The notes beneath the pieces were generated by a model. It worked only from the letters and a program-made list of their open reading frames with translations, did no database searches and was not told the DNA's origin. Both the position numbers and the translations under genes were made by a program. Source: a virus. Taken from it: DNA of 64,000 bases. The stretch lies in IMG/VR virus record IMGVR_UViG_3300009545_000004, positions 5,560 to 69,559 of that record. One strand, 5' to 3'. Below are positions 1 through 17,123 of this stretch, one piece after another. Every line of letters starts with the position of its first letter. The stretch's first letter is position 1.

Positions 1-1446
1 CACGTGAACAACGTGGTCGGCAACCTGACGATGGCGCACTTCGCGGGCGTGTCCTACCACCGCGGCGACAAGTACCTCGGCGCGCTGAAGGACTTCGTGA
101 TGAAGGGGCCCGGCCTGCAGGAGGCGCGCGACGCGGGCCTCTTCGTCGGGACGCACAGCGACGCCGAGCTGGTGCGGGAGCTGCCCAAGGAGCTGCGCGC
201 GCTCGTGGCGCAGCAGCGCGGCGTGCTCAAGATCGGCGCCGACCTGGCATTCAACATCGCGACGCTCGGCCTCAAGCGCCCGCTGACCGCGCTCTACGGC
301 GCCGAGGACACCTTCTTCAAGTACATGCTCTACAAGGACGCCCGTGGTCGCGGCATGGCACCGGGCGATGCGGTCAACCACGCCGAGCGCTACATCTTCA
401 CCTACGACGACTTGCCGAGCGGCGCGCGCGCGGTCAGCAACACCTTCGTGCCGTTCTTCTCGTGGACGTACAAGGCGGTGCCCGCGCTGCTGCACACCGC
501 GCTCGCGCACCCGGCGCGCTTTGCCGGGCCGATCGCCGTGACCTGGCTGGCCAACGCCATCGGCTACGCGCTGGCGGCCGGCGGCGACGACGACGACTGG
601 TACGAGAAGCTGAAGAAGGCCATCAGCGACCCGGCCTATCGCGCCAAGATGCAGGCGCTGCATGACCAGGAACAGAAGGGCCTGCCGCCCTGGATGCGCC
701 ACAAGTCGGCGCTGTTCGAGACGTATGCGAACGGCATCCCGAAGGCCGCGACGCCGACGACGAGCCTGTTCGATCGCGACAGCGTGATCCGCCTGGGCAA
801 GGACAGCGTGACGCACTTCCCTATGTTCATCGACGTGGGCCGGATGATCCCGGGCGGCGACCTGTTCGACGTGGCGCCGCACGCCGGGGGCATCTCCTTC
901 CCGGCGCCGATCACGCCGAGCAATCCGCTCTTCACGATCGGCTCGGGCATGTTCGGCAACAAGGACTTGTGGACCGGCAAGCCCATCGTGGACGCCAACG
1001 ACACCGGCTGGGAGAAGACCGAGAAGTACGCCGACTGGATCTGGCGCAACACGGCGCCGGCCATCGCGATCGGCGGCCGGCACTGGCAGACCGCGATGAA
1101 CGCGGCGGCGCATGCAGCCGGCGGCACGGCCAACTGGATGCCGACCTTCATGTCCGACAAGTACACCGGTATCCAGAAGAGCGGCCTGCCCGCGCAGCCG
1201 AGCCTCGCCGCTGCCAACATCATGGGCATCAAGATCAACCCGCAGGACTTGCAGCGCTCCGAGCAGATCGACCAGGCCATGAAGCAGAAGGCGATCCGCG
1301 ACATCCTGGCGGAGATGCGCGCGCTCAAGCGCCAGGAGAGCATCGGCGCCGTGCGGCCGGCCGAGGTGCAGCGCGAGATGGTGAAGGCGCGCGAGAAGAT
1401 CCAGAACGTGCAACGGGGGCTGACGGTCAGCGGCGACGAGCGCTGA
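1..1446 (+). CDS. C-terminal part of giant internal virion (polyvalent/DarB-like) protein, 5'-truncated by the window
   Basis: Frame is open from base 1. FVPFFSW...P motif and helical C-terminus resemble LPD38-like ends of large polyvalent proteins. Directly precedes the lysis genes, and the giant ORF at 56933 runs off the other end. Confidence 0.6.
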   Translation, partial: HVNNVVGNLTMAHFAGVSYHRGDKYLGALKDFVMKGPGLQEARDAGLFVGTHSDAELVRELPKELRALVAQQRGVLKIGADLAFNIATLGLKRPLTALYGAEDTFFKYMLYKDARGRGMAPGDAVNHAERYIFTYDDLPSGARAVSNTFVPFFSWTYKAVPALLHTALAHPARFAGPIAVTWLANAIGYALAAGGDDDDWYEKLKKAISDPAYRAKMQALHDQEQKGLPPWMRHKSALFETYANGIPKAATPTTSLFDRDSVIRLGKDSVTHFPMFIDVGRMIPGGDLFDVAPHAGGISFPAPITPSNPLFTIGSGMFGNKDLWTGKPIVDANDTGWEKTEKYADWIWRNTAPAIAIGGRHWQTAMNAAAHAAGGTANWMPTFMSDKYTGIQKSGLPAQPSLAAANIMGIKINPQDLQRSEQIDQAMKQKAIRDILAEMRALKRQESIGAVRPAEVQREMVKAREKIQNVQRGLTVSGDER

Positions 1447-1492
1447 TTCCACAGGCGGGCGCAACAGGCGCGCACCATGACAAGCTGGCCGC

Positions 1493-1918
1493 ATGGATCA
1501 CGATTGGCTCACCACCCTCGCCGGGTGGGCCGTTGCTACCCTGGGGATTGGGGGTGCAGGCCTCGCGGTGCGCAGCCGCATGAGCCGCGACAGCACCCAG
1601 CGCAGGAAGGATCGCGTCGAGTCTGAATTCGTCGGCCTCCTGCTCAAGGAACGCGACGGTGCGCGCGAGGAAGCGCGCCTGGCTCGCGAAGAGCGCCAGC
1701 GCGAACTGGATCGCCTGAAGGACGAGCGCAAGCGGGACGCCGAGCTGGTGGCCCGGCTGCGCGCAGACAACGCCCACCAGGAAGCCGAAATCCAGCGGCT
1801 CATCCGCGAGATGGACTCTTTCCGCCGCCGCGTCGCGCGCATGTTCCCCGAGACGCGCGAGTTCGTTCAAACCAACGTCGCCGACCTCTCCCCCCCTGAA
1901 ACGAAAGGCAAGCCATGA
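1493..1918 (+). CDS. Lysis-cassette membrane protein (N-terminal TM + coiled coil)
   Basis: Hydrophobic WLTTLAGWAVATLGIGGAGLAV followed by a charged coiled coil; first gene of the lysis cluster. Confidence 0.55.
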   Translation: MDHDWLTTLAGWAVATLGIGGAGLAVRSRMSRDSTQRRKDRVESEFVGLLLKERDGAREEARLAREERQRELDRLKDERKRDAELVARLRADNAHQEAEIQRLIREMDSFRRRVARMFPETREFVQTNVADLSPPETKGKP

Positions 1919-2166
1919 CCGAGTCCACGCTCCTCGTGCCGCCTCCGAAGAAGACCTGGGGCGAGAACCTCTCGGCGATGTGGCACCACGTCAGCACCTA
2001 CGTCGCGCTCGGCTACACCACCGCCACGGGCGTCTGGCTGAGCCTCGATCCCGCGACGCAGGCCGCCGCCATCGCTGTCGTGCCAGGCTTGAAGTGGATC
2101 GCGCCAGTGACGGCCGCCGTCGCCTTCATCGCGGCCAAGGGCCTGCCGCAGAAGCCGCGGGAGTAG
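1915..2166 (+). CDS. Putative holin
   Basis: 83 aa, two hydrophobic segments, basic C-terminus, directly upstream of the endolysin. Confidence 0.6.
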   Translation: MTESTLLVPPPKKTWGENLSAMWHHVSTYVALGYTTATGVWLSLDPATQAAAIAVVPGLKWIAPVTAAVAFIAAKGLPQKPRE

Positions 2167-2169
2167 GGC

Positions 2170-2742
2170 GTGGTGACGGTCGTCCAGCTCGTCGCGATCA
2201 TGGGCTGCAGGCCCGAGCGCGCCGTGCTATTCGTGGACGCGATCAACGTCACGTTTGCCGAGTTCGACATCCTCTCGGTGCCGCGCATGTCGGCCTGGTG
2301 CGGCCAGGTCGGCACCGAAAGCGGCGGCCTGACGTACACCCGGGAAATCTGGGGGCCGACCTCGTGGCAGAAGGCCTACGAACCGCCGAGCGCGAAGGCG
2401 ACCGAGCTGGGCAACACGCGGCCCGGCGACGGCCTGCGCTACCGCGGCCACGGCCTGATCCAGACGACGGGCCGCTACAACCACGCGCGAGCCCGCGACG
2501 GCCTGCGCAAGCACTTCCCCGATGCGCCCGACTTCGAGCTGTCGCCCGAGCTGCTGGAGCTGCCGCGCTGGGCCGCGGCGAGCGCTGGCCTCTACTGGGC
2601 GGACAAGGGATTGAACGCGCTCGCGGACCAGGACACGATCGAGAGCTTCACGGCGCTCACCCGGCGCGTCAACCGGGCGATGCTGAAGCTCGACGAGCGC
2701 ATCGCCTACTGGAAGAAGGGCAAGCAGGTTTTCTCAAGCTGA
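2170..2742 (+). CDS. Endolysin, glycoside hydrolase family 19
   Basis: GQVGTESGGLTYTRE and GDGLRYRGHGLIQTTGRYN motifs typical of GH19 phage lysins. Confidence 0.9.
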   Translation: MVTVVQLVAIMGCRPERAVLFVDAINVTFAEFDILSVPRMSAWCGQVGTESGGLTYTREIWGPTSWQKAYEPPSAKATELGNTRPGDGLRYRGHGLIQTTGRYNHARARDGLRKHFPDAPDFELSPELLELPRWAAASAGLYWADKGLNALADQDTIESFTALTRRVNRAMLKLDERIAYWKKGKQVFSS

Positions 2743-3349
2743 TGCCCACCAAGTTCACGATCACCAACTACGGCCTCGCGGCAAGGAGCTGCTGGTGGTC
2801 CTGGTGGATGCGCGTTCGCGCCCACGCCTGAACGCCATCGTGCGGCGCGAAATCGTCGGTGCTCGGTGCCGAGCAGGTGATGATCATCCGGCCGCTGAGA
2901 GGGGATGCGCCTCCCGGAGATCAGCTCTCGGCAGACGAACTGCTGGCGGCGTCCGAAGTCGTTGGCCGTGGTCCTGGTGATCCACCCTTTGACGACGCTA
3001 CGGGGGTCCGACCTGGCTTCGATCAACCCATCGGCCAAGTTGCTGTAGCCGCGCACGGTGTTGGCGGCCGAGTCGATGATTTCGGCCTTGAGGGGGTACT
3101 CGCCGTGATGCACAAGTCCGGGTCTGACGCCACCACGTACTTGCGGCAGACGCTCGGCCGGGCTCGTAGATGGCACCGGTATTGTCGCCATCCTGCAGGC
3201 GGAGAGCCGAAACAGGCGCCAGCAGCGCGATCCAAGCCTGAAGAGCTCCCTGTGGAAAGCTCCGTCCGTTCGCCTTGGCCCGTCGTGATTAGGCGGTATC
3301 CTTCCGGAACTATGACATTGCACGTCATCTACCGCGAGAATCTAAGCGT

Positions 3350-4447
3350 ATGAAGATTATTTCTATATTTAACAATAAGGGTGGCGTTGGGAAGACGACG
3401 CTCACGTTTCATCTTGCTCATGCTTTGGCTGAGCTGGGACATCGCACCCTGATTGTTGACATGGATCCGCAATGCAACGTGACAATTCTGGGGTTGGACG
3501 AGGCCACGTTGGATGAAGTGTGGAAGGCCGAGGAGAGTTATATAGATGATTATGTTGCAGCCAAGGCTGGTTCGACAGGCACTGAGTTTGAAGAACTGAT
3601 AACGTCGCCGCGGTCTGTGCATTTTCTACTGAAGCCAACGGAGGATGGTGCCTCCGATTTGGACCGACTACCCCCTCCTTTCGAAATAACGAAAAATCTA
3701 CATTTGATTCCCGGTCGACTTACGATGCATTTATACGAGGATGCTATTGCCCGTCGATGGAGTGATGTATATCAAGGCGATCCCCTTGCGGTTCGCACCT
3801 TGACAAAACCGAGGGATCTTGCGCTCAGGTATTCTAAGCTCTACAACTATGATTTTGTAATCTTAGACACTTCGCCTAGTTTGGGCACTCTCAACCGAGT
3901 AGTTATATCAACTGCCGACGGGATCGTCGTGCCCTGCATGCCGGATATGTTTTCACTTTACGGGATTAAAAATATTGGAAACGCGCTGGGGACTTGGAAA
4001 AAGCAGTTTGAAACGATTTATCATTTGCTTTCCGACGAAAAACGCAGGCTTTTCCCCGACAATTTTGTGAAACTGCTGGGGTTCACAATCTACAACGCAA
4101 AAAAGTACACGGGGGGGCGGCCGTGGGATTTGGCGACTGCGCACTATAACTACGCTCGAAGGATTCCCGCGCAAATTGAAGCTTACGTGCCGCCGGATCT
4201 GTTGAGCTATTTGCCCAAAGCAACATGGAGTGAGCCTATCGGGGAGACATCAATTATGCATACTCACAACACGCTCCCTACGATGGCGCAAAAGTATCAT
4301 GTGCCCATGTGGAAGGTGCCTTCGCAATCTTTGCGGTCCGAAGATCAAAATACTATTGCTGGCAATCGCTCCGTTTACGAAGAAACGCGATCAAAGTACG
4401 CCGAGTTTGCCGAAGATTTTTTGCGTCGTGTAGCGAAGCTTGATTGA
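3350..4447 (+). CDS. ParA/MinD-family ATPase (low-GC cargo)
   Basis: Deviant Walker A NNKGGVGKTT, VDMDPQCN, ILDTSPSLG; visibly more AT-rich than flanks. Confidence 0.9.
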   Translation: MKIISIFNNKGGVGKTTLTFHLAHALAELGHRTLIVDMDPQCNVTILGLDEATLDEVWKAEESYIDDYVAAKAGSTGTEFEELITSPRSVHFLLKPTEDGASDLDRLPPPFEITKNLHLIPGRLTMHLYEDAIARRWSDVYQGDPLAVRTLTKPRDLALRYSKLYNYDFVILDTSPSLGTLNRVVISTADGIVVPCMPDMFSLYGIKNIGNALGTWKKQFETIYHLLSDEKRRLFPDNFVKLLGFTIYNAKKYTGGRPWDLATAHYNYARRIPAQIEAYVPPDLLSYLPKATWSEPIGETSIMHTHNTLPTMAQKYHVPMWKVPSQSLRSEDQNTIAGNRSVYEETRSKYAEFAEDFLRRVAKLD

Positions 4448-4456
4448 GGAAGCTCC

Positions 4457-5404
4457 ATGCAAGACCCGGTATTTACACAAAATGCGCTTCGAGCATTCGA
4501 CGACTTGCAGCATGAGCTAGCAATCTTCATGGATAGCGTGGCCACATGGTTTCAAACGAATCCGCGGTTGTCACGGGGTTCATTACCGATTGTCCATTCT
4601 GTCAAAAAACGAATGAAGGACAGGGAGCATCTTCGAGAAAAAATAGAGAGAAAGTCTTCGCCAAATCGAATAATCAATGAGAGGTCTCTGTCAAATGAGG
4701 TGACAGACCTTACCGGAGTCCGAGTGCTGCATATTCACCAAGATCAAATGAGTCAGATTCACGCAGAGATTATGAATAAGGTGAATGTAAAAAACGACTG
4801 GCACCTCCATGAACAGCCTCGTGCATACACTTGGGATCAAGAATCTAGCGAATTTTTTCGCACGCTGGATTTGGACGTGGCTCTTAAACCTAGTTCATAT
4901 ACAAGTGTTCACTATGTGGTACGTCCCAAGCCTGATTCGAATATCTGCTGCGAAATTCAGGTAAGAACTTTGTTTGAGGAAGTCTGGGGCGAGGTGGATC
5001 ACGTCCTGAATTATCCCCAAGAAACATTGATTGTCGCGTGCCGGGAGCAACTGCGCGTCTTGGCAAAAGTTGTAGGCGCTGGCACGCGGCTGGTGGATTC
5101 GATATTCCGCAGCATCCCTCCTGCACAGGTAGCCGTGAATCCCGAAGTTCCAGCCGTAGACGCGGGAAGACCAGCTGAGCCGACAGGGGAGTCGGGTGCT
5201 TCCGTTGAAGTGCCCGCAGCGCCTGTTCAAGTGATCCTTCCCACCGTCCATGACCCGGCAGGAGCGGTCGCGGCACGGCCTGCTGAGCTGGAAATGGAGA
5301 AGCCTGACACCGACAAAGTACATGCAACGCCCGGAGCGACACCTCCGGCGGGCGCCGGGCATGTTGTCGACCAGGTCGACGCGGACGTTTCACGCAATGT
5401 CTAA
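4457..5404 (+). CDS. RelA/SpoT-domain small alarmone synthetase-like nucleotidyltransferase with Pro/Ala-rich tail
   Basis: SVKKRMKD..LREKIERK, TDLTGVRVL, YTSVHYVV, EIQVRTLFEEVWGEVDH; RBS GAGGA; 9 bp after parA. Confidence 0.88.
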   Translation: MQDPVFTQNALRAFDDLQHELAIFMDSVATWFQTNPRLSRGSLPIVHSVKKRMKDREHLREKIERKSSPNRIINERSLSNEVTDLTGVRVLHIHQDQMSQIHAEIMNKVNVKNDWHLHEQPRAYTWDQESSEFFRTLDLDVALKPSSYTSVHYVVRPKPDSNICCEIQVRTLFEEVWGEVDHVLNYPQETLIVACREQLRVLAKVVGAGTRLVDSIFRSIPPAQVAVNPEVPAVDAGRPAEPTGESGASVEVPAAPVQVILPTVHDPAGAVAARPAELEMEKPDTDKVHATPGATPPAGAGHVVDQVDADVSRNV

Positions 5405-5440
5405 CTGCTCAGGGGTTCGCCAAATTCAGCGGATAAGACA
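5399..5440 (-). other. Integron recombination-site-like sequence (attI-like, core GTTAGAC)
   Basis: GTCTAAC overlaps the synthetase stop codon; minus strand reads GTCTTATCCG...CAGTTAGAC. Confidence 0.4.
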
Positions 5441-5612
5441 CGACAACGCGGCGTTGCTGCGCGAGCTCGATAGGGTCTTCACATCGGCTTACGCCGTCCG
5501 TCCGCTGGGTAGCGAGAGCAGCCCCCGGACAGCTTGATCGACCGTCCGTTCCCGGCCGGGTGCGTGAATTCGGAGACCAACGCCGACTGACGCCCCCACC
5601 ACAAGCTTCCCG

Positions 5613-6089
5613 TCAGGCCTTGCGGGGGTATGGCTCCCACACCACGATGCCACGGGCGCGCGCATTCCGAACCATGTTCGCAGTGCCGGTGCCGCCGGCA
5701 AACGCAATGCAGACGTGCGCTCCGGCTTCGGCCATTTGCTTGTTCCGCATCGGCCCTGCAGCCTTGCCCCACATCTCCCAGGAAGCCGGATGCAGCTCCG
5801 GCTGGATGCCGTTTTCGCGAGCCCACTCGTCGGCCCAGCGGTCTGCGCCGGCCAGGTTGTGAGTCTTGGGGTCCATGCACGCCCCGTGCACCAGCAGCGT
5901 GATCGGGCGCTTGGCATGCGCTTTGTCGAGGGCGGCGAAGACGCGAGCGCGATCCTGATAGTCGCGGCCACCGCAGCAGATCACCACGAAGCCGGTCGCA
6001 AGGCGTTGGGCTCGCTGCTCGGCTGCGGAGGGCAGCAGTGGCGCGATCCGATCGGGCGGAACGTATGTTCGTTGTTGAGGGTTGCCCAT
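5613..6089 (-). CDS. DUF2493 / YspA-like SLOG family protein
   Basis: VICCGGRDY, LVHGA...GADRWADEWA, GKAAGPMRNKQM, IAFAGGTGTANMV. Confidence 0.88.
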   Translation of the reverse strand: MGNPQQRTYVPPDRIAPLLPSAAEQRAQRLATGFVVICCGGRDYQDRARVFAALDKAHAKRPITLLVHGACMDPKTHNLAGADRWADEWARENGIQPELHPASWEMWGKAAGPMRNKQMAEAGAHVCIAFAGGTGTANMVRNARARGIVVWEPYPRKA

Positions 6090-6109
6090 GCTCGCTCGTT
6101 CTCGTTCGG

Positions 6110-6286
6110 GGCTCAAAACAGCTCCTGGCTGTCGGGAGGCTCCTTGACAACACGCGGCCCCCTTGCGAGGGGAGCGGGCCGACCGTATCACGAGCGTACC
6201 GGTGTGGGCTGACCACGCCTTTGGGGGCTGCTTGAGACTGGGAAGCTGACGCTCACCAACGAGCATTGAACTCGCAGTTTTGACCC
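6110..6286. repeat. Element A, copy 1: ~175-nt non-coding multi-hairpin element upstream of the SLOG gene
   Basis: Near-identical to 8216-8384; several inverted repeats. Confidence 0.9.
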
Positions 6287-6327
6287 GTCACGGACTTTCG
6301 CATAAGCGTCATTTCCGCAAGGCTGTC

Positions 6328-6455
6328 GCTCAGCATTCGAGCGACGCCGTCTACGAGGGCTGACGCTCTGGCCGAGCGAAGCACGATAGACCGGAGGTGC
6401 CCAGTGACCAAGCATGGAGGCCATCGCGGGTCGGTGTTTGAGCGATGGACTAGAC
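6328..6455 (-). other. Degenerate integron attC-like site downstream of the HEPN gene
   Basis: Starts 1 nt after the stop with GTCTAGT (~RYYYAAC), then CCATCGCTCAAACACCGACCCGC..., ends GCTCGAATGCTGAGC (~GCTCGAAC-GTTRRRY); 128 nt. Confidence 0.55.
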
Positions 6456-6456
6456 A

Positions 6457-7848
6457 TTACCGCGCCTTGGCCTCCAGCAGAAGTTGTTCTACTAACTGGT
6501 TGCGGTCAAGTGACCAATCCAGCTTAGCAAGTCTGCCTTGCCACCAAGTTATCACTCCGATGAGGCAGAATAGCGTCCTGTCCGCTTCGTGCGAACCCAG
6601 AGGAATTCGGCTGTTGTGAGATGCTGCATTCCTCCATTTGAGTAATTCATTGAGTCTGTCAGCAACGTTCGCTGGAAATACTGACTTGCGGGATATTGGT
6701 TTCGTCGCCTCATCGATTCTCCTTGAATAGTACTGCCGATCATCGAGCAGCAAAGCGAGCAAGTCTCGTAGGATGGGCTTCAAGGCGTCGGATTCGACAG
6801 CGCTTTCCAGAGCCTTAATTTGATCGTAAACATGATCGGGGGACTTCTGCGTAGGCTTTGGCTGCGACAGGAGTTCTTCGACTCTCTTGTGCAAGCGCTC
6901 AACCGTCTGCCCAAGCGTTAAGCCGCCGGGTAGGGGCTCACGAAGCAAAGTTGTATAGATGCGCTGAAGATAATCTTCGGCAATGAGGCCAAGGGAACTT
7001 ATGCAATGCTGGAAGTCGTCCTCCACGTAGTATGCGAGCGCTTGCTCAAAGACCCTGGAGATCTGCCCATCTTGGACAACCTGGGTTAGTACACTAGAGA
7101 CGAACGGAAAGTACGGCCTAAACAAGTCCTCATCCGGGGCGAAAACGCGACGAAGGGTTGAGTCTGCGACCACACCGAGCCCCAAGTAGAAGTCACTCAA
7201 TGCAACGAGTTCATCGCGTCGCATTGCAACAAGGTGAAGAGTACCCGAGGAGCGAGGGCCCTCAAGCATTGTTACGAGTCCCGTCTTGATCTGATGCGGC
7301 TTTGAGGCGGAGAAGCCAGATAAGTATCCGTCGAAATAGATTCTCTCGGTGAAGACCTTCCAGGCTTCTGGAAACTTGTCAGGGATCTGAGCAAGATCCA
7401 GTTTTCCCATCCACGCATCGTGCTCCGCATACTTTGCTACGGTTCCCTCGGAGCGCCTTGCCACAGCACGGAAGAGTGCGTTAATCGAACTTAATCGATT
7501 CGAAATTTGAAGCAACTCGGCTCGTTTCTCCTCGGACATCCTCCTTGCCGTTGTCAGAGGAGAGAAGTTGGGCGTATCGGTTTCATTTTCAATTTCGGAG
7601 AGCGTGCTCAGCGTTCCAATTAGGTACTTGGCGAACGGAGAGCTTGGGTTCCAAGTTGCTCGAAACTCCCAGAAACCTTTCTCGTATGGCTCCAACAGGT
7701 ATTCAACAATAGGGATCGTGAGCGACTTGGGCAGCGGCGCGCGCGTCGTCCTACGAGGCGTGGCAGATCCAGATTCGCGTTCCGCTTGGGTCTCGACGGT
7801 GCGAATGAGGCGAGCGAGCCTTAGATCATTTAGCAAAGTGTCTCCCAC
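6457..7848 (-). CDS. Cargo protein with C-terminal HEPN-like domain
   Basis: C-terminal WRNAASH (Rx4H) and LIAEDYLQ..TLGQ helix pattern; lower GC. Confidence 0.6.
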   Translation of the reverse strand: MGDTLLNDLRLARLIRTVETQAERESGSATPRRTTRAPLPKSLTIPIVEYLLEPYEKGFWEFRATWNPSSPFAKYLIGTLSTLSEIENETDTPNFSPLTTARRMSEEKRAELLQISNRLSSINALFRAVARRSEGTVAKYAEHDAWMGKLDLAQIPDKFPEAWKVFTERIYFDGYLSGFSASKPHQIKTGLVTMLEGPRSSGTLHLVAMRRDELVALSDFYLGLGVVADSTLRRVFAPDEDLFRPYFPFVSSVLTQVVQDGQISRVFEQALAYYVEDDFQHCISSLGLIAEDYLQRIYTTLLREPLPGGLTLGQTVERLHKRVEELLSQPKPTQKSPDHVYDQIKALESAVESDALKPILRDLLALLLDDRQYYSRRIDEATKPISRKSVFPANVADRLNELLKWRNAASHNSRIPLGSHEADRTLFCLIGVITWWQGRLAKLDWSLDRNQLVEQLLLEAKAR

Positions 7849-8134
7849 GAGATCGAAAATCCGGCTGGCGAGTTCGCCCCAGCCGACAGTCAGAGCGGAA
7901 AGTCGTTAACGCCCGGCTGGCACATCGTCCTTTCCGCGCTCGACGCCAAAGAAGGTGAGCATGCCGTCCGTCCCAGTGACGGGGCGGTAGTTTGAGCATA
8001 TTCGGAGATTATGTCCTGTACTGTCGAACGTCATTTCGGCTGTCCGAAGGCATGCGCCCGTTGAAGCGCGCCCTTCATCTGCGCCGATTGGTACATCATG
8101 CCCTCGGGGGTCTTCACTTCCTGCCCCCCAACGT

Positions 8135-8218
8135 TCAGGCCTTGCTGGGGTATGGCTCCCACACGACGATACCTAGGGTGCGCGCATTGCGAACCATGTT
8201 CGCGGTGCCTGTACCGGC
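8135..8218 (-). pseudogene. 3'-end remnant of a second SLOG (DUF2493) gene
   Basis: Matches 5613-5698 (GTGTANMVRNARTLGIVVWEPYPSKA*); the rest is deleted, so it joins element A copy 2 directly. Confidence 0.9.
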
Positions 8219-8384
8219 TTAAAGCAGCTCCTGGCTGTCGTGAGGCTCCTTGATAACAAGCGGCCCCCTTGCGAGGGGAGCGGGCTGACCGTATCACGAG
8301 CATACCGGTGTGGGCTGACCGCACCTTGGGGCTGCTTGAGACTGGGAAGCTGACGTCCAACTACGAGCATCGCAGTTTCGACCC
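8216..8384. repeat. Element A, copy 2
   Basis: Near-identical to 6110-6286. Confidence 0.9.
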
Positions 8385-8489
8385 AATGCAGCCGCTTGCT
8401 TGTCGGCAAAGCCGACACTCTGCTGCGCCTGTTGTTGAACCCGTTCGGCTATGGGAATGACTTCGCGCCTGGAAGGCCGTGCTTGAACA

Positions 8490-10232
8490 TCAAAATGAAA
8501 AGCTGACTCTCGTCAAGTGTTCATGCAATGCGTCGAACCTTGGAGCCTTCGACAATGCAGCCATTACGCAAGGCTCGCACTGCAATCCCTTAGCGCCGTA
8601 GTCGGCGTGCCATTCACGAAGGATCGCTTCCAGCAAGGTGCCGTCGAACGCGACGCGAGCCGGCGGCGCCCAGAACCTTCCCTGATCACCTGCGACGCGC
8701 TCGGCGTAGCCGAGTGCCAATGCGAGCTCCAGGCGCGCAAACGCCGCATCGAAGGCCTCGGAGTCTCGTAGCTCACGCTTGGCCAGCGGGCGCAGCACAT
8801 CGGCCATCAGCTCGGAACCAGGCAGTCGCTTGTCCTTGTATGCGGGTAGCAGCTTGAAGCGGTCCGCGCCGCCGTCTCTTATGAGAGCTATGACGTTCAG
8901 GCGGTCGCCCAATGCGAAGCTACCTTCGCCCTTGTCATCGATGTCGATCACCTTGCCGGCAAGTAGCCCAATTAGTTGGGGACGCCGACCAATCACGGCG
9001 CCGAGACCAAACGCGTACAAGACTTGCGATGCGGGGAAAGCCCGCAGGTCGACAAGGGGTGTCGGCCCGCTGGCGTTTCGCCGCCGTCGAGCAAGCGCAA
9101 TGACAATGTCAACCCACTGCTGCGTCTGCTGCTCGTTGCACCATAGGCCAGCGGTGTAGGCCAGCGGCAAGAAAGAATCGAGGGCAGCTTGGTACTGCAT
9201 CACGTGGTCCGCAAACGCCTGCGGCGACCATTCACCGATTACGAACTGCGGTTGATCGAGGCGCTCAAGCACGCGGCAGAACTCCGCATTGACAAGGTCC
9301 TGCAGTCGGATCTGGTGGCGTGGCTCGGGCAGGTAATCCTTCATCATCGCCACTGCGATGTCTGCCGACAGAGGGTGTGGCTGCCGCAGCGCTTCAATGG
9401 CTTGCACTCGCTGCGCGAGCACATCGAAGAAGCCGTCCGCGCCGTCGATCGGCACGATACGCGCAAGGCGACGCTCGATCAGCGCCTTTGCTGCCGCACC
9501 CGGCTCGCCGCGTGCGGCCCAGATCATCGGGTAGCGCCTTGATGGCGCACGGTCGATCGCCGCTTTGAGCGCGATGTCCCACTCGCCGGACCAGCCGCAG
9601 ACGATCAAGCCGAACTCATCCAGCACCCGGTCGAGTAGCGCGTCGAGCGCCGGCTCGTAAGCCGACAACTCACCCGTAGTGTTGCGGATGCGCGTATCGA
9701 GGTAGTCGCCGTGCAGTTTGACAATCACCGGACCGGCATGTATCAACGGCACGGCGCCGGTCACATGGTCGGCCGAACTGATGACGGTCGCCTTGATGCC
9801 GAGGTCCGCAAGTGCCTGCTCGAGCAACTGGTCGAAGTTGGTTGTCAGCACCACGCGCACGTAGCCTTTGGCCATCAGGCTTGCAATGGCGCGGTGTGCG
9901 GAGGTAGGCAACTTCTCGCCGCGCGCTCTCTCGCCGTCCGAGGGCTCTATGTAGGGGCGGATCACCTGCTGGCGCAGCGCTGGCGTCGTCGCAAGCCTAT
10001 CGAGCAGCTCCGAGTAGTCCGGCGTCTTGCCGAACGTTGCCGAGTACCAGCCCGCCGGATCTGCGCCTGCGTCCTCATCTTTGAGCACCGCCATCTGGCG
10101 CACCAGATCGAGCGTGATGTCCCAACCTGTGGGGATCTTGGCCGCCCGCGACACGCCCGAGCCGAGCAGTAATGCGAACACTCCTTTGGCCGCCTGTACT
10201 TCGAAGGCTACGGCGCTAACTGGATCAAGCAC
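8490..10232 (-). CDS. SIR2-like (SIR2_2) NADase-domain protein, putative defence
   Basis: LLLGSGVSRAAKIPTGW, LTTNFDQLLE, VKLHGDY, GLIVCGWSGEWD; GTG start with AGGAG RBS. Confidence 0.88.
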   Translation of the reverse strand: MLDPVSAVAFEVQAAKGVFALLLGSGVSRAAKIPTGWDITLDLVRQMAVLKDEDAGADPAGWYSATFGKTPDYSELLDRLATTPALRQQVIRPYIEPSDGERARGEKLPTSAHRAIASLMAKGYVRVVLTTNFDQLLEQALADLGIKATVISSADHVTGAVPLIHAGPVIVKLHGDYLDTRIRNTTGELSAYEPALDALLDRVLDEFGLIVCGWSGEWDIALKAAIDRAPSRRYPMIWAARGEPGAAAKALIERRLARIVPIDGADGFFDVLAQRVQAIEALRQPHPLSADIAVAMMKDYLPEPRHQIRLQDLVNAEFCRVLERLDQPQFVIGEWSPQAFADHVMQYQAALDSFLPLAYTAGLWCNEQQTQQWVDIVIALARRRRNASGPTPLVDLRAFPASQVLYAFGLGAVIGRRPQLIGLLAGKVIDIDDKGEGSFALGDRLNVIALIRDGGADRFKLLPAYKDKRLPGSELMADVLRPLAKRELRDSEAFDAAFARLELALALGYAERVAGDQGRFWAPPARVAFDGTLLEAILREWHADYGAKGLQCEPCVMAALSKAPRFDALHEHLTRVSFSF

Positions 10233-10536
10233 TGTTCTCTCCTGATGAGCTTGTCTGATAAGAAATTGGCGCACCATGCGAGCGAGACGGCCGATTCGTC
10301 TGTTGCGCGGAGCAGAACGATTGTCGCGGTAGGCCGATGGCGGCCGGCGGCTGGCGAGTTCGCGCCAGAAGAACCACCCGTGCATGTCGGTTTCGGCGGG
10401 CCTCACTCACCAGCCGCCGCAACCGCAGCCGCACCTCGGGGTTCTCCGCGTGCAGCTCATCGTCGAGCTTCTGCTCCAGCTCGTCCGCGAATGTGACGAG
10501 ATGGGCGAAGGCGTAATCGAAGCTGCCGCCGCTCAT
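10225..10536 (-). CDS. Phage hypothetical (MSGGSFDY... type), 3' end probably disrupted
   Basis: Overlaps upstream stop; C-terminus loses protein-like character near the cargo junction. Confidence 0.5.
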   Translation of the reverse strand: MSGGSFDYAFAHLVTFADELEQKLDDELHAENPEVRLRLRRLVSEARRNRHARVVLLARTRQPPAAIGLPRQSFCSAQQTNRPSRSHGAPISYQTSSSGENSA

Positions 10537-10901
10537 GGGCTGGCCTCGCGCACCGGCTGGTGCGAGAGCAGGTACAGCAGGTTCGCGGTCAGGAAGACGG
10601 CGTAAGGGATCAGGATCCGGCCGAACGGGCCGAACTGTTCAGGCTTCACCGTCCCCATGACGACAACCCCAAAGCCGCCCAGCAGGAGCAGCAAGTTGAG
10701 CCCCGCGGCAACCGCCCATAGCCAGGCTGGTCGGCGCCCGAAGACGTAGACGGCGACGGCGAGGAACGGGAGCGTCGCGCTGAGCAGAAAGCCCAGGCCG
10801 GGGGCCACGCCGACTCGAAATGGCGCCGAGGAGGCGAGGGCGCCGTAGACCGTCTGCAGGATGTTGCCGACGCCGAAGAGGATCGACCACAGGAGCTTCA
10901 T
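10533..10901 (-). CDS. Multi-TM membrane protein
   Basis: Four hydrophobic segments from MKLLWSILFG; coupled start/stop. Confidence 0.65.
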   Translation of the reverse strand: MKLLWSILFGVGNILQTVYGALASSAPFRVGVAPGLGFLLSATLPFLAVAVYVFGRRPAWLWAVAAGLNLLLLLGGFGVVVMGTVKPEQFGPFGRILIPYAVFLTANLLYLLSHQPVREASP

Positions 10902-11119
10902 AGCACCAGCCCCGGCGGGTAGTCCGATACAGCCAGGCTCGGCGGCTCGTGCTCCTGCAGCTCGCGCTCGAACTCCGTGGTATCGAGCGACTTGTGCACC
11001 GCGGCCCGGGTAATGAAGCAGTGCACCGCGATACCGCTCTCGGTGTGCCCCTCCCATATTCGCGCCGGCACGCCGTCGATTTCGACGAATTTGGTGGTAC
11101 TGGTCAGCGTGAGTTTCAT
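10898..11119 (-). CDS. Phage hypothetical protein
   Basis: MKLTLTSTT...VPARIWEGHT; coupled in operon. Confidence 0.7.
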   Translation of the reverse strand: MKLTLTSTTKFVEIDGVPARIWEGHTESGIAVHCFITRAAVHKSLDTTEFERELQEHEPPSLAVSDYPPGLVL

Positions 11120-11376
11120 CAATGCGCCGCAGGCACGACCACCGCCTCGATCGACACCTTGGTATCCGGGCCGATACTGGGCGCCAGGTAATCCACGATG
11201 TCGCGCTCGGTTTTGCCCCAGCAGATCATTACCTCGCCCAAGCCCGGAGGGCCGCCCATGTCTTCGAGTTTCACGATGATGGGTTTGTTGGAGCGCAGCC
11301 GGAGGATATTTTCGTCAGAGAGCCCGAGCACATAGACCGGGGTATCTCCATTCGTGGTCGCGCGAGCCTTGATCAT
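11119..11376 (-). CDS. Phage hypothetical protein
   Basis: Coupled ORF, LGLSDENILRL motif. Confidence 0.65.
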   Translation of the reverse strand: MIKARATTNGDTPVYVLGLSDENILRLRSNKPIIVKLEDMGGPPGLGEVMICWGKTERDIVDYLAPSIGPDTKVSIEAVVVPAAH

Positions 11377-11597
11377 TTTGGTTCCCTTTCAGGCGAGGGT
11401 AGGTTGCGGAGTTGCCTGGCGGTATCTTCGAGATGGGCGGCGAGTTTGGCCTGGTCGATCGGAGCGACGGACTGCACCGAGAATCCGTCACCGCTGCTGC
11501 CACCGACGACGATCAGCAACACCAGGCTCGCCTCGGTGATCTCGCGGGCAATGCTGCACGCCCCATCGTATTTGCCGGGGCCGTGTGCAGCGGTCAT
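11373..11597 (-). CDS. Phage hypothetical protein
   Basis: GPGKYD...GDGFSVQ; coupled ORF. Confidence 0.6.
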   Translation of the reverse strand: MTAAHGPGKYDGACSIAREITEASLVLLIVVGGSSGDGFSVQSVAPIDQAKLAAHLEDTARQLRNLPSPEREPK

Positions 11598-11859
11598 GAG
11601 TCGGCTTTCGTGGTGTCGATGAAGAGGGCGCCGCGCGTCGTGGATTGCCAGGCCGTGGCCAATGGCCCTCGCCGACGGGCCGGCAATTTCTATTCGGTAG
11701 CGGCCCGCAGCGCTGCCAGGATGGCCTTGCGCGGCCAGTCTGCGCCGATCGCGAAGGCCCAACTTGACGGAAGGTGTGCACGCGATCCGGCGCGCTGTCG
11801 GACAGCATGGCGACCGCAGTTTCGTGGTCGACTAGCTCGCGCTTGTCGGGGACGCTCAT
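11594..11859 (-). pseudogene. Frameshifted phage hypothetical gene
   Basis: Protein-like segments VHTFRQVG / FAIGADWPRKAILAAL / IEIAGPSARAIGHGLAIHD / ALFIDTT lie in different frames. Confidence 0.55.
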
Positions 11860-12479: not shown

Positions 12480-12508
12480 GAAAAAACCAATAGGAATCAA
12501 TGACTTAG

Positions 12509-12539: not shown

Positions 12540-12675
12540 CCAACCACTTTGAACTGCTCGCGTAGCCCTAGAGGGGGTTGGCCCGAGTGGTTGAACCACT
12601 TCGGTCGCGGACCGTTTGGGCGTCCAGTCGTGTTTAGAATCGCTAGCGAATTCACAAGCGACGACTGGAGCAGCA

Positions 12676-13911
12676 ATGGCATCGATCCGCCGGACACCGA
12701 CAGGCAAGTGGGAAGTGAAGTTCACGAAGCAGGCCCTGTTTCCCAAGCCCATCTATTTCACGTTCGACGACGAAGAGACGGCCCGCAAGTACGGAGCTGA
12801 AGGCGACGCTCTACTCGCCAAGGACATCATCCCCACAGGCTGGGTAGCTGCTCCACTCGACACCAAAACGAAGCACGACACATTGGGGCCGATCATTCGG
12901 GCCTGGCTCAACAGTGGCCACGCCTCGGTATCGGATGACGAGGTGCTGAATCTCGTCTTCAGCGAGAAGGGTGTCACGCCGATGCGCGACATGAATTACA
13001 AGTGGTGCGAGGCTTGGGTGCGCGAAATGAAGGTCGACAAGAACCTGGCGCCGAGCACCATCCGCAAGCGCGTGGGTGCCGTCAGCCGCGCCTTCGGCTA
13101 CTGGGCCCGATCGTTCGAAGAAGTGGAGCCACCGGTGAACTGCTTGGCCCTGCTGCCTCGCGGCTACTCGACGTACACGAAGAAGGACATCGAGCTGGCC
13201 GAGGCCAACGGCAAGAAGGCCAGGCTCGACGAGGTGCGCGAGCGCCGCCTCAACGAAGGCGAGGAAGAGCGCATTCTGGAGACCCTCAACGGCGTCAAGC
13301 GGGCCGATCGCGAGCGCCCCTTCATCGACCCGTCCGACAAGTCGATGCTGAACCTCTACCTCATGATCGTGAACACCGGCGCGCGTCTCATCGAGGCCTA
13401 TACGTTGACCCGCGGGCAGATTGATCTTGCGCAGAGATTCATCCGCATCAAAACCTCGAAGCTGAAGCCAGGCAAACCTCAAGAATGGCGTCACGTGCCC
13501 ATTCGGGCCGAGTTATATGACCCGCTGGTGGCCTGGCTGGAGGCGAGAAATCTGAGCGACGAGAAGTCGATGGCGAAGGCCCTCGTCTTCCCATTTTGGG
13601 ACGGACATCCCGATGATTTGACGCCGGCCGGGAAACGCCTCTCGCAGCGTTTTCGGAAGGCATTCGACTACTCGAACATGCCCGACTTCACTGAGCACGA
13701 CTTGCGCCATGAGGCAACGTGCAGGTGGTTTCAGATGCGATTCGAAGACGGGAGCTGGGTATACCGCGGCGAGGAAATCAACAAGCTGATGGGCTGGAAA
13801 CCGAACTCGACGATGGCGCAGCGCTATGCGTCATTCCAAGCTGAAGAACTCGCGGCGCGGCTGTGGAAGGGTGTTCCCGCCGGCAACCTCAAGCTCGTGC
13901 CAAAGGGCTAG
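12676..13911 (+). CDS. int: Tyrosine integrase
   Basis: NTGAR, HDLRH, LMGW, QRY catalytic motifs; adjacent to attP. Confidence 0.95.
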   Translation: MASIRRTPTGKWEVKFTKQALFPKPIYFTFDDEETARKYGAEGDALLAKDIIPTGWVAAPLDTKTKHDTLGPIIRAWLNSGHASVSDDEVLNLVFSEKGVTPMRDMNYKWCEAWVREMKVDKNLAPSTIRKRVGAVSRAFGYWARSFEEVEPPVNCLALLPRGYSTYTKKDIELAEANGKKARLDEVRERRLNEGEEERILETLNGVKRADRERPFIDPSDKSMLNLYLMIVNTGARLIEAYTLTRGQIDLAQRFIRIKTSKLKPGKPQEWRHVPIRAELYDPLVAWLEARNLSDEKSMAKALVFPFWDGHPDDLTPAGKRLSQRFRKAFDYSNMPDFTEHDLRHEATCRWFQMRFEDGSWVYRGEEINKLMGWKPNSTMAQRYASFQAEELAARLWKGVPAGNLKLVPKG

Positions 13912-14210: not shown

Positions 14211-14257
14211 TCTCCAGGGAGGTGCGAAGGCAGCATGAGCACTTCAAAAAGGGTTTG

Positions 14258-17120: not shown

Positions 17121-17123
17121 GGC

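What the first reader, a model, noticed from the sequence alone, without database searches (positions are those of the whole stretch)
3350..5404. ParA ATPase + RelA/SpoT synthetase operon: candidate defence or toxin-antitoxin system
Seen: an AT-rich two-gene operon 9 bp apart, with no recognisable parB and no hydrolase gene; synthetase motifs are present and followed by a ~95-aa disordered tail. Established: toxSAS enzymes (FaRel, PhRel, CapRel) make (p)ppApp or pyrophosphorylate tRNA and can be anti-phage. Inference: a ParA-fold ATPase acts as sensor or antitoxin gating an alarmone synthetase. I know of no named system with this pair. It sits beside HEPN and SIR2 cargo.
Basis: partly seen in the sequence, partly recalled or inferred. 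Interest (0 to 1): 0.8.

Follow-up and report, generated by a model that had tools for sequence, protein, structure and literature searches.

The report
Phage-borne ParA-ATPase / alarmone-synthetase defence candidate
A complete temperate phage carries a tightly linked gene pair, an enlarged ParA-type ATPase and a small RelQ-like alarmone synthetase, that travels as a unit through many bacterial phyla and prophage defence hotspots, so it is probably an untested anti-phage or growth-arrest system.

Summary
3350-4447(+) encodes a 365-aa ParA/MinD-type ATPase and 4457-5404(+) a 315-aa RelA/SpoT synthetase-only protein, 9 bp apart, at 47-48% GC in a 66% GC window. The last ~90 residues are a disordered acidic tail.

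The pair is a self-contained mobile cassette:
- A ParA homologue lies directly upstream of the synthetase in 78 of 80 genomes from many phyla.
- The synthetase follows the ATPase in 29 of 29 testable viral contigs.
- No third gene recurs.

The window is part of a complete 69.6-kb temperate phage. There the pair sits in a cargo region between the lysis genes and the integrase, beside HEPN-like and SIR2 genes. In E. coli it occupies the P2 gpA-gpQ anti-phage hotspot.

Distant long ParA relatives pair just as tightly with SIR2 enzymes, so the ATPase looks like a regulator with exchangeable effectors. The synthetase is closest to RelP/RelQ and has the guanosine-type acceptor signature.

Best reading (about 0.55): an uncharacterised abortive-infection system. 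No function was shown, and no named system or paper describing the pair turned up. This scan had already flagged the same cassette in at least 9 other genomes.

The parts
3350..4447 (+). Enlarged ParA/MinD-type P-loop ATPase, 365 aa (P0001)
   Evidence: Pfam gives AAA_31 at 4.2e-31. The AlphaFold2 model has pLDDT 94.5. Foldseek's top hit is 3pg5 (DIP2308), followed by Soj/ParA. The protein is conserved over its full length at 48-71% identity in 52 homologues.
3371..3400 (+). Deviant Walker A, NNKGGVGKTT (residues 8-17), with signature Lys10 and P-loop Lys15
   Evidence: N8, N9, K10, G11, G12, V13, G14, K15 and T17 are invariant in 53 of 53 sequences.
3857..3880 (+). Walker B region, VILDTSPS (residues 170-177)
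   Evidence: D173, S175 and P176 are invariant in 53 of 53 sequences. D37 and D39 (3458-3466) are also invariant.
3992..4444 (+). C-terminal extension of the ATPase (residues ~215-365), absent from ~250-aa Soj/ParA
   Evidence: The region is modelled with confidence. W216, F220, K231, P236, T308, Q314, P319, W321 and P324 are invariant. In the ESM Atlas it matches only other long ParA-family clusters.
4446..4456 (+). Junction: a GAGGA ribosome-binding site overlapping the ParA stop, within the 9-bp spacer
   Evidence: Read directly from the sequence. In 57 related loci the two ORFs are between -32 and +14 nt apart in 55, and 17 show a 4-nt overlap (starts taken by the longest-ORF rule).
4457..5131 (+). 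Small alarmone synthetase core, residues 1-225 of P0002
   Evidence: Pfam gives RelA_SpoT at 2.3e-16. pLDDT is above 90. Foldseek ranks 1-22 are RelP/RelQ-type SAS structures. The family profile matches RelP/RelQ at 5e-10 to 2e-8 and CapRel at 0.63.
4595..4654 (+). ATP-binding basic motif, HSVKKRMKDREHLREKIERK (residues 47-66)
   Evidence: R52, K54 and K62 are invariant. H47, S48, K50, H58, L59, R65 and K66 are at least 90% conserved.
4706..4723 (+). DxxGVR motif (residues 84-89; syn2-type)
   Evidence: D84 and R89 are invariant, and G87 and V88 at least 90% conserved. This matches the AVR-type consensus that PMC12226406 gives for guanosine 3'-pyrophosphokinases (passages read).
4898..4915 (+). 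YTSVHY acceptor-nucleotide motif (residues 148-153; syn3 'SxH')
   Evidence: Y148, T149, S150, H152 and Y153 are invariant. PMC12226406 states that SxH recognises guanosine, while (p)ppApp synthetases of the Apk2 type carry GxN.
4952..4969 (+). Catalytic EIQVRT motif (residues 166-171; syn4)
   Evidence: E166, Q168, V169, R170 and T171 are invariant. The motif aligns to EIQIRT of RelQ-type structures (alignment printed).
5132..5404 (+). Disordered Pro/Ala-rich acidic tail (residues 226-315) plus stop codon
   Evidence: pLDDT falls to about 42-64 (block means; under 50 in five segments). Beyond residue 220 the net charge is -9 and Pro+Ala make up 35%. The tail is absent or very short (11 aa or fewer) in 9 of the 23 aligned relatives. 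Its GC is 63.5% against 46.8% for the core.
1493..2831 (+). Context: phage lysis genes on the left (hol-like 1493-1918; endolysin/chitinase-like 1980-2831)
   Evidence: PHROG phrog_2658 at 1.5e-8. There is blastn similarity to lysin A and chitinase genes of phages at 2273-2492.
5613..10406 (-). Context: further cargo on the opposite strand (GTP-binding/SLOG-like 5613-6266, HEPN-motif protein 6457-7848, SIR2 protein 8490-10406)
   Evidence: PHROG phrog_289 at 3.6e-24. The RNAASH motif was read. Pfam gives SIR2_2 at 6.2e-9.
12616..13911 (+). Context: phage integrase closing the cargo region
   Evidence: PHROG phrog_1 (integrase) at 1.5e-25.

Best explanation
The two genes form a mobile two-component anti-phage (abortive-infection or superinfection-exclusion) module that this temperate phage carries as cargo.

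The downstream protein is the effector. It is a RelP/RelQ-like small alarmone synthetase with a complete active site and a guanosine-type acceptor site. When switched on it probably floods the cell with (p)ppGpp-type nucleotides at the expense of ATP and GTP, and so arrests growth.

The upstream protein is the regulator. It is an enlarged ParA-type ATPase that should form ATP-dependent dimers, as ParA and Soj do. I infer that it reads a DNA-linked cue of infection, such as the state of the nucleoid or the presence of foreign DNA, and then licenses or releases the synthetase.

Shown here:
- the identity of both genes and their intact catalytic motifs;
- strict pairing and co-inheritance across phyla;
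- the foreign base composition of the pair;
- its location in phage cargo and in the P2 hotspot;
- the pairing of related long ParA proteins with SIR2 effectors.

Inferred:
- the anti-phage role;
- the product of the synthetase;
- whether the ATPase activates or inhibits;
- the trigger.
For: 1. Strict, reciprocal pairing. The scan of 185,579 species genomes found 332 relatives of the synthetase. In the best 80 loci a ParA homologue lies immediately upstream on the same strand in 78. Of the other two, L034 has only 311 nt upstream and L080 has no hit. Starting from ParA in IMG/VR, 34 loci hold a homologue at 47% identity or more. 29 of the 29 that extend past the gene hold the synthetase next, and 5 end at the contig edge.

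2. Self-contained cassette. No other ORF family recurs in more than 3 of the 80 loci. No small upstream ORF recurs in more than 2 of 59 loci.

3. Co-inheritance. Pairwise identities of ParA and the synthetase core correlate at r=0.74 over 1378 pairs. The maximum over 1000 label permutations is 0.19.

4. Foreign composition. The pair is at least 5 GC points below its flanks in 59 of 73 loci and never above them. Here it is 47-48% against 66%.

5. Defence context.
- The window is part of a complete 69.6-kb phage with terminal repeats.
- The pair lies between the lysis genes and the integrase, beside a SIR2 gene and a HEPN-motif gene.
- 7 of 5426 complete E. coli genomes carry the pair.
- In the one I inspected it lies between the replication endonuclease (gpA) and the portal (gpQ) of a P2-like prophage. 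Rousset et al. define that interval as an anti-phage hotspot (PMC9122126, section 10).
- Among 89 ORFs flanking the pair in 23 viral loci, 6 are portal proteins, 5 are gpA-type nickases and 4 are large terminases.

6. Exchangeable effectors. Distant long ParA proteins (25-33% identity, 323-366 aa) are followed by a ~290-aa SIR2_2 protein in 15 of 45 viral loci, often with a 4-nt overlap. Starting from the SIR2 side, 21 of 23 loci have the long ParA directly upstream.

7. Other sensor arrangements for the same core. Relatives of the synthetase core occur fused to TPR repeats (P0178, P0220).

8. Likely product.
- The nearest sequence and fold neighbours are the (p)ppGpp synthetases RelP and RelQ.
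- The SxH, GVR and VR signature positions are of the guanosine type.
- The core has a net charge of -2.

9. Precedent. In the PANGU preprint a DNA-bound sensor activates a small alarmone synthetase to make pppGpp and abort infection (10.64898/2026.04.06.716658; sections 3, 11 and 12 read).
Against: - No experiment exists for this pair, and none was found in print.
- In bacterial chromosomes the nearest flanking genes are heterogeneous. They include plain housekeeping genes such as alanyl-tRNA synthetase, G6PD and malate:quinone oxidoreductase. No Pfam or PADLOC family occurs in more than 2 of the 138 flanking ORFs scanned. A classical defence-island signal was therefore not seen there.
- PADLOC 2.0.0 does not recognise either protein beyond weak partial hits.
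- The nearest characterised relatives, RelP and RelQ, are housekeeping enzymes. Jimmy et al. report them as non-toxic (PMC7229694, passage).
- The P2 hotspot also holds non-defence cargo, including putative partition systems (PMC9122126, section 10).
- The pair is rare in isolated phages: 3 distant hits among 50,697 records.
- PMC12226406 reports that swapping the signature motifs did not convert substrate specificity. The product call is therefore weak.
Confidence: 0.55

Rival explanations
1. Classical toxin-antitoxin (addiction) pair. The synthetase is constitutively toxic and the ParA-like protein is its antitoxin. The module stabilises the prophage or island that carries it and does not sense phage.
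For: The arrangement is bicistronic, often overlapping and upstream-partner-first, as in toxSAS TA operons. Jimmy et al. state that conserved TA-like arrangements of SAS genes indicate toxicity (PMC7229694, passage). The cassette is mobile, low in GC, and inserted singly among housekeeping genes.
Against: A 365-aa ATPase with invariant Walker A, A' and B residues and a conserved 150-aa extension is unlike known toxSAS antitoxins. The same ATPase family is paired with SIR2 enzymes. The synthetase is nearest to non-toxic RelP/RelQ, not to the CapRel structure. In the closest experimental precedent, PANGU, neither gene alone was toxic and the partner is an activator.
Confidence: 0.2
2. Phage-serving regulator. 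The phage uses the synthetase to adjust host alarmone levels for its own lysogeny, induction or host-takeover programme, with ParA as a localisation or timing factor.
For: The pair is encoded on a complete temperate phage next to the lysis genes and the integrase. It occurs in 34 IMG/VR contigs. The enzyme looks like a genuine (p)ppGpp synthetase.
Against: Most of the 80 genome loci show no phage genes next to the pair. Its position in cargo and hotspot regions, its foreign GC and its patchy spread across phyla are those of accessory genes, not of core phage regulation. The parallel ParA-SIR2 pairs are hard to read as lysogeny regulators.
Confidence: 0.12
3. DNA partition or cargo-positioning system, in which the ParA ATPase segregates the element or positions the synthetase on the nucleoid.
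For: The protein has a ParA fold and a deviant Walker A. NCBIfam's best hit is 'ParA family partition ATPase', though far below cut-off at 83 bits against 180. Rousset et al. note putative partition systems in about a quarter of P2-like hotspots.
Against: There is no ParB_N gene in the 69.6-kb record. The invariable downstream partner is an enzyme with an intact active site, not a centromere-binding protein. The carriers are integrated elements and chromosomes. Only one close plasmid hit appears among 72,556 plasmid records.
Confidence: 0.03

Closest known systems
PANGU type I (Pag1A YejK-like nucleoid-associated protein + Pag1B GRel toxSAS; bioRxiv 10.64898/2026.04.06.716658; abstract, passages and sections 3, 11, 12 read)
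   Same: Both are two-gene operons in which a DNA-associated protein is paired with a small alarmone synthetase effector. In PANGU the effector makes pppGpp, neither gene is toxic alone, and the partner activates the enzyme. Both are spread across phyla and have exchangeable effectors.
   Different: The partner here is a ParA/MinD-type ATPase, not a YejK-like protein: Pfam gives only P-loop families. The synthetase family has no folded C-terminal 'DNA-mimic' domain. Most members end near residue 225, and the tail in this copy is disordered. Whether this synthetase belongs to the GRel subfamily was not tested.
toxSAS toxin-antitoxin modules FaRel, FaRel2, PhRel, PhRel2, CapRel (PMC7229694, passages read; CapRel structure 7ZTB)
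   Same: Both involve a stand-alone RelA/SpoT synthetase in a conserved, often overlapping operon with a specific partner, carried on mobile elements and phages.
   Different: The family profile matches CapRel only at E=0.63 and matches no other toxSAS structure at E<=10. The fold ranks CapRel 40th, behind RelP/RelQ. The partner is a large ATPase rather than a small antitoxin or a hydrolase.
RelP/RelQ (SAS2/SAS1) housekeeping small alarmone synthetases (PDB 6EWZ, 6FGJ, 5DEC, 2BE3)
   Same: These are the best matches in sequence profile and fold, with the same catalytic motifs and the SxH acceptor motif.
   Different: Identity is only ~20%. The NCBIfam YjbM equivalog scores 38.8 bits against a cut-off of 320. 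The family studied here is a horizontally mobile cassette that is always tied to a ParA-like gene.
Soj/ParA partition ATPases and the uncharacterised long ParA DIP2308 of Corynebacterium diphtheriae (PDB 3PG5)
   Same: Same P-loop fold and deviant Walker A. 3PG5 is the best sequence match (1.9e-26, residues 1-325) and the best fold match, and is of similar length at 361 aa.
   Different: There is no ParB partner. The protein has a ~50-residue helical insertion and a ~150-residue C-terminal extension relative to ~250-aa Soj. Identity to 3PG5 is only 23-26%.
P2-like prophage hotspot cargo (Rousset et al. 2022, PMC9122126). Earlier notes of this scan cite arrangement #110 'ParA/AAA_31 | RelA_SpoT' in Table S5B.
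   Same: I confirmed that an E. coli homologue of the pair sits between gpA and gpQ of a P2-like prophage. The paper's section 10 defines that locus as the hotspot.
   Different: The main text does not mention the pair. The table is a supplement that I could not open. By the earlier notes the entry is only a listed arrangement, neither tested nor named. In this window the carrier is a different kind of temperate phage, and the site is the region between the lysis genes and the integrase.
ATPase-plus-exchangeable-effector defence systems such as Lamassu and PARIS (recalled from my own knowledge, not from a call)
   Same: It would work alike: an NTPase partner controls one of several unrelated toxic enzymes. 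The SIR2 partner of the related ParA proteins hits the PADLOC models ThsA, PDC-S25, Dsr and LmuA.
   Different: The ATPases belong to different classes (SMC-like or ABC-like against ParA/MinD). No sequence relationship was found.

Membership tests
toxSAS toxin-antitoxin modules | Stand-alone RelA/SpoT synthetase domain with an intact active site and no hydrolase domain | tested here: met
   Pfam finds RelA_SpoT only. The catalytic motifs are invariant in 53 sequences. HD_4 is absent from the record.
toxSAS toxin-antitoxin modules | Conserved bicistronic arrangement with a cognate partner gene | tested here: met
   The partner is present in 78 of 80 genome loci and 29 of 29 testable viral loci. 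The genes are tightly spaced or overlap.
toxSAS toxin-antitoxin modules | Membership of a validated toxic subfamily (FaRel, FaRel2, PhRel, PhRel2, CapRel) | tested here: inconclusive
   Only solved structures could be compared. CapRel matches at E=0.63 and no other toxSAS at E<=10, while RelP/RelQ match at 5e-10. The subfamily HMMs of Jimmy et al. are in supplements that I could not open.
toxSAS toxin-antitoxin modules | Synthetase toxic when expressed alone and neutralised by the partner | not testable with these tools
   This needs expression assays.
PANGU type I | Sensor is a YejK-like nucleoid-associated protein | tested here: not met
   The partner matches only ParA/MinD-type P-loop families.
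PANGU type I | Effector synthetase carries a folded acidic C-terminal domain that binds the sensor | tested here: not met
   Most family members end near residue 225. The tail here is acidic (net -9) but disordered and limited to a sub-clade.
PANGU type I | Two-gene operon conferring abortive infection | not testable with these tools
   The operon structure is met. The phenotype is untested.
ParABS partition systems | ParA-type deviant Walker A ATPase | tested here: met
   KGGVGKT is present with both lysines invariant, and the fold matches Soj/ParA.
ParABS partition systems | Adjacent ParB or other centromere-binding partner | tested here: not met
   The downstream gene is the synthetase in all testable loci. 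ParB_N has 0 matches in the record. The NCBIfam partition equivalogs score far below cut-off.
RelP/RelQ housekeeping SAS | Scores above the curated equivalog threshold | tested here: not met
   NF053588 (YjbM) scores 38.8 bits against a cut-off of 320.
Named systems in PADLOC-DB 2.0.0 | Full-length match of both proteins to the models of one system | tested here: not met
   ParA matches only the Walker A region of PDC-M28B (6.8e-7, residues 4-39). The synthetase matches PDC-S33 at 1.4e-3.

The most novel reading that the evidence does not exclude
Enlarged ParA-type ATPases may be a previously unrecognised class of infection sensors. As ATP-dimers that ride on DNA, they would report damage to the nucleoid or the arrival of foreign DNA, and would then license one of several exchangeable killing enzymes. 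Here that enzyme is a RelQ-like synthetase giving a (p)ppGpp burst. In sister systems it is a SIR2 NADase. This would be a second, independent invention of the 'relocating chromosome-bound sentinel' logic reported for PANGU, with chromosome-segregation machinery turned to immunity.
Probability: 0.3. Interest if true: 0.8.

Novelty: new variant of a known kind. Interest (0 to 1): 0.6.

Why it matters
If the pair protects against phage, it would add a widespread system: at least 332 species genomes, many phyla, and prophage hotspots including that of E. coli P2. Its sensor would belong to the ParA/MinD family, which is otherwise known for DNA segregation and for positioning cell components.

It would also be a second case, after PANGU, of an immune effector that makes (p)ppGpp rather than (p)ppApp or modified tRNA. 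The parallel ParA-SIR2 pairs would tie two effector chemistries to one sensor family, which makes the sensing step testable by swapping partners.

Practically, the operon is 2.1 kb, E. coli homologues exist, and the mutations needed to test it are obvious from the invariant residues.

Tried and rejected
Complex prediction. ParA (alignment A4) was folded with synthetase residues 1-225 (alignment A5). The result was 'no answer' (score 0.28, mark 0.32). It counts neither for nor against binding.

Expression. The look-up of sequencing runs listed 16 DNA holders, all rhizosphere or root metagenomes, and no RNA holder. This is no evidence either way, and read laying was not used.

Fusions. I looked for ParA-synthetase fusions. 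Ten longer relatives from the representative search had no ParA domain. A word-based search among proteins of 553-2000 aa found none (weak evidence).

Third gene. Earlier notes of this scan describe a three-gene variant with a small DNA-binding protein. In this clade no upstream ORF family recurs. The ORF 2859-3353(+), which ends 4 nt into ParA, translates to low-complexity sequence with no family hit, and I take it as spurious.

Promoters and terminators. The scan found no more sites than in shuffled sequence: 3 against 2.0, and 3 against 3.5.

Defence-island tally. I scanned the nearest flanking ORFs of the genome loci, 138 of the 187 collected. 12 were dropped to meet the residue limit, and 37 fell beyond the 150-sequence limit. 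The tool lists only the 25 commonest families, and none had more than 2 members. No enrichment could be shown or excluded.

Isolated phages and plasmids. Phages gave only 3 distant hits. Plasmids gave one close hit, on a Caballeronia megaplasmid, and otherwise ~35% relatives on large Bacillus cereus-group plasmids. I did not follow these up.

Selection of rows:
- Alignments A4 and A5 use 52 of the 57 loci in which both ORFs were called. L038, L057, L066, L074 and L077 were left out because the called ParA start disagreed with the tblastn match or the gene was broken.
- For about 15 other loci (among them L001, L002, L012-L014, L016, L019-L021) I set the ParA start to the start of the tblastn match.
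- Alignment A6 uses 89 of 111 flanking ORFs. The duplicate loci L091, L103, L104, L105, L110 and L114 were dropped.

Papers:
- For PMC12691689, PMC13064643 and PMC11806420 I saw only passages, and none bore on the pair.
- Supplements of PMC9122126 and PMC7229694 were not seen. They may hold the listing of this arrangement and the subfamily assignment.


Full report
WHAT IS THERE

The window holds two same-strand ORFs. ORF 3350-4447 encodes 365 aa (P0001) and ORF 4457-5404 encodes 315 aa (P0002).

P0001 is a ParA/MinD-type P-loop ATPase:
- Pfam gives AAA_31 at 4.2e-31 and CbiA at 1.8e-15.
- PHROG calls it a 'ParA-like partition protein' at 4.8e-41.
- It carries the deviant Walker A NNKGGVGKTT.

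P0002 carries only a RelA_SpoT synthetase domain (2.3e-16, residues 51-189).

The genes are 9 bp apart, and a GAGGA ribosome-binding site overlaps the ParA stop codon.

Base composition marks the pair as foreign. ParA is 48.2% GC and the synthetase core 46.8%, against 65.6% for the window.

That includes the absence of ParB_N and HD_4 genes from the whole record.

THE CARRIER

The window is bases 5560-69559 of a 69,559-bp IMG/VR virus record. That record has direct terminal repeats and a CheckV completeness of 100%, so the pair sits on a complete temperate phage.

To its left lie:
- a weak tail-fibre-like ORF;
- a hol-like gene (1493-1918);
- an endolysin/chitinase-like gene (1980-2831).

To its right, on the other strand, lie:
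- a GTP-binding/SLOG-like gene (5613-6266);
- a 463-aa protein whose only recognisable feature is a C-terminal RNAASH motif (6457-7848);
- a SIR2_2 protein (8490-10406);
- then the integrase (12616-13911).

This layout is that of an accessory cargo region between the late genes and the attachment/integration module.

THE PAIR IS A CONSERVED MOBILE UNIT

The synthetase belongs to a large family:
- 3120 proteins score E<=0.001 in the word-based search.
- 1751 50%-identity representatives score E<=0.001, and 90 of them reach 1e-30 or better.
- A pattern scan of one genome per species found 332 relatives among 185,579 species.

Pairing from the synthetase side (best 80 loci):
- tblastn with P0001 finds a homologue immediately upstream on the same strand in 78.
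- 76 of these are at 43-71% identity. L042 and L059 are at 26-28%.
- L034 has too little upstream sequence, and L080 has no hit.

Pairing from the ATPase side (IMG/VR): 34 loci hold a ParA at 47% identity or more. All 29 that extend beyond the gene hold the synthetase next.

No other gene belongs to the unit. All-against-all clustering of the ORFs in the 80 loci yields no other family in more than 3 loci. No small upstream ORF recurs.

Spacing is tight. In 57 loci, 55 have a gap between -32 and +14 nt, and 17 have a 4-nt overlap.

The two proteins co-vary: r=0.74, with a permutation maximum of 0.19.

The pair is at least 5 GC points below its flanks in 59 of 73 loci and never above them.

By record title the hosts span Pseudomonadota, Acidobacteriota, Bacillota, Bacteroidota, Chloroflexota, Poribacteria, Elusimicrobiota and others.

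THE TWO PROTEINS

The ATPase:
- It is conserved over its whole length. Walker A (K10, K15), D37/D39 and D173 are invariant, as are many residues of the C-terminal 150 aa.
- Its AlphaFold2 model is confident (pLDDT 94.5).
- It is closest to DIP2308, an uncharacterised 361-aa ParA-like protein (3PG5), and then to Soj and ParA, including DNA-bound forms.
- The extension resembles nothing but other long ParA proteins.

The synthetase core (residues 1-225):
- It is confidently modelled.
- Its nearest neighbours are RelP and RelQ, both by family profile (5e-10 to 2e-8, against 0.63 for CapRel) and by fold (ranks 1-22, with CapRel at rank 40).
- All catalytic motifs are invariant.
- Three signature positions, GVR, SxH and VR, are of the type that PMC12226406 gives for guanosine 3'-pyrophosphokinases. 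They differ from the RYT/GxN/YH type of (p)ppApp synthetases. The same paper reports that swapping these motifs did not convert specificity (passages read).
- The core has a net charge of -2.

Together this points, weakly, to a (p)ppGpp-type product rather than tRNA modification or (p)ppApp.

The tail (residues 226-315):
- It is disordered, acidic (net -9) and rich in Pro and Ala.
- Nine of the 23 aligned relatives have no tail or one of 11 aa or fewer, while the closest, mostly Burkholderiales, relatives keep one.
- Its codons have the GC content of the resident DNA (63.5%) rather than of the cassette.

I read the tail as a lineage-specific extension, not a core part of the system.

DEFENCE CONTEXT ELSEWHERE

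Using the Edwardsiella copy as a DNA probe, 7 of 5426 complete E. coli genomes carry the pair. There it is annotated 'ParA family protein | RelA/SpoT domain-containing protein'.

In NZ_CP053787.1 the pair lies between the replication endonuclease and a DinI-family gene on one side and the portal gene of a P2-like prophage on the other. Rousset et al. describe exactly this gpA-gpQ interval as a hotspot of anti-phage systems. They also warn that it holds other cargo, such as putative partition systems (PMC9122126, section 10).

Among 89 ORFs flanking the pair in 23 non-duplicate viral loci, 6 are portal proteins, 5 are gpA-type nickases and 4 are large terminases. The same hotspot is therefore used in other taxa.

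In bacterial chromosomes the picture is less clear. The 138 nearest flanking ORFs are heterogeneous and include housekeeping genes.

EXCHANGEABLE EFFECTORS

The viral scan also returned 45 loci with distant long ParA proteins (25-33% identity, 323-366 aa).

- In 15 of them the next gene is a ~290-aa SIR2_2 protein (Pfam 3e-21), often overlapping by 4 nt. These SIR2 proteins hit the PADLOC models for ThsA, PDC-S25, Dsr1/2 and LmuA.
- Starting from these SIR2 proteins, which are only ~30% identical to one another, 21 of 23 loci have the long ParA directly upstream.
- One long ParA overlaps a full-length PglZ gene.
- L042 and L059 pair the synthetase with yet another long-ParA clade.
- Synthetase relatives also occur fused to TPR repeats.

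This is the pattern of a regulator family with swappable toxic enzymes. It argues that the ATPase is the sensing or controlling part and the synthetase the effector.

COMPARISON WITH WHAT IS KNOWN

No named system fits.
- PADLOC 2.0.0 gives only a Walker-A-limited hit to PDC-M28B and a 1.4e-3 hit to PDC-S33.
- Eight full-text searches found no paper that describes a ParA-type ATPase with a RelA/SpoT or SIR2 partner.

The closest mechanism in print is PANGU type I. There a YejK-like nucleoid protein leaves the degraded nucleoid and activates a GRel synthetase to make pppGpp. The logic may be the same here, but the sensor family is different and the synthetase lacks PANGU's C-terminal domain.

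The toxSAS TA modules share the operon logic, but not the subfamily or the kind of partner.

EARLIER NOTES OF THIS SCAN

The scan had already reported the same cassette in at least 9 other genomes. Those notes reach the same reading and cite an untested listing of the arrangement in Table S5B of Rousset et al..

From those notes I tested three things myself:
- the P2-hotspot location;
- the pairing of the ATPase with other effectors;
- the three-gene variant, which is absent in this clade.

VERDICT

This is a real, strictly conserved, horizontally mobile two-gene module. It is most likely an uncharacterised anti-phage or abortive-infection system, with a ParA-type regulator and a RelQ-like alarmone synthetase as effector (confidence 0.55).

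The rivals are a plain toxin-antitoxin/addiction pair (0.2), a phage-serving alarmone regulator (0.12) and a partition system (0.03).

Function, product, trigger and the sign of regulation are all inferred. The complex prediction gave no verdict, and no RNA data were found (see Tried and rejected).

Noticed in passing
L131:4977-6919 (IMG/VR); also L134, L136, L141-L145, L147, L149, L152, L156-L159, L166-L183: A second conserved two-gene module: a long ParA-like ATPase (~330-357 aa) followed, often with a 4-nt overlap, by a ~290-aa SIR2_2 protein. The pairing holds from both sides (15 of 45 loci, and 21 of 23), although the SIR2 proteins are only ~30% identical to one another. PADLOC 2.0.0 has no model for the ATPase.
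   Followed up: partly
L122:5001-8293 (IMG/VR): A 326-aa long ParA-like gene overlaps by 4 nt the start of a full-length PglZ gene (PADLOC PglZ 1.9e-281). A member of the same ATPase family is therefore embedded in a BREX-like locus.
   Followed up: no
P0178 (619 aa), P0220 (813 aa): Relatives of the synthetase core (42-44% identity) are fused to long TPR-repeat arrays. This would be a sensor attached to the same enzyme in cis.
   Followed up: no
window 5117-5404: The codons for the disordered tail have 63.5% GC, like the resident phage DNA, while the catalytic core has 46.8%. The tail may have arisen by extension of the reading frame after the cassette entered high-GC hosts.
   Followed up: partly
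window 1-13911 (virus record 5560-19470): The window is part of a complete 69.6-kb temperate phage with terminal repeats. About 9 kb between its lysis genes and its integrase is a cargo region with at least four candidate defence genes: ParA-synthetase, a GTP-binding/SLOG-like gene, a HEPN-motif protein and a SIR2 protein.
   Followed up: partly
window 6457-7848 (-): This 463-aa protein has a C-terminal RNAASH (Rx4H) motif but no Pfam or PHROG family. The HEPN assignment rests on the motif alone.
   Followed up: partly
L045:3490-5983 (genome contigs): The ParA gene of this cassette is split into two pieces about 1.4 kb apart (residues 3-270 and 270-364), as if interrupted by an insertion. The synthetase downstream is intact.
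   Followed up: no
L042:4908-5918 and L059:4940-5953: Two genomes pair a typical synthetase (50-53% identical to the window's) with a long ParA of a different clade. That ParA is 26-28% identical to the window's, and the two are 40% identical to each other. This suggests partner replacement within the ATPase family.
   Followed up: partly
plasmid hits H6-H33: Distant relatives of the synthetase (~34-38% identity over the core) are annotated on large Bacillus cereus-group plasmids. Their neighbours were not examined.
   Followed up: no
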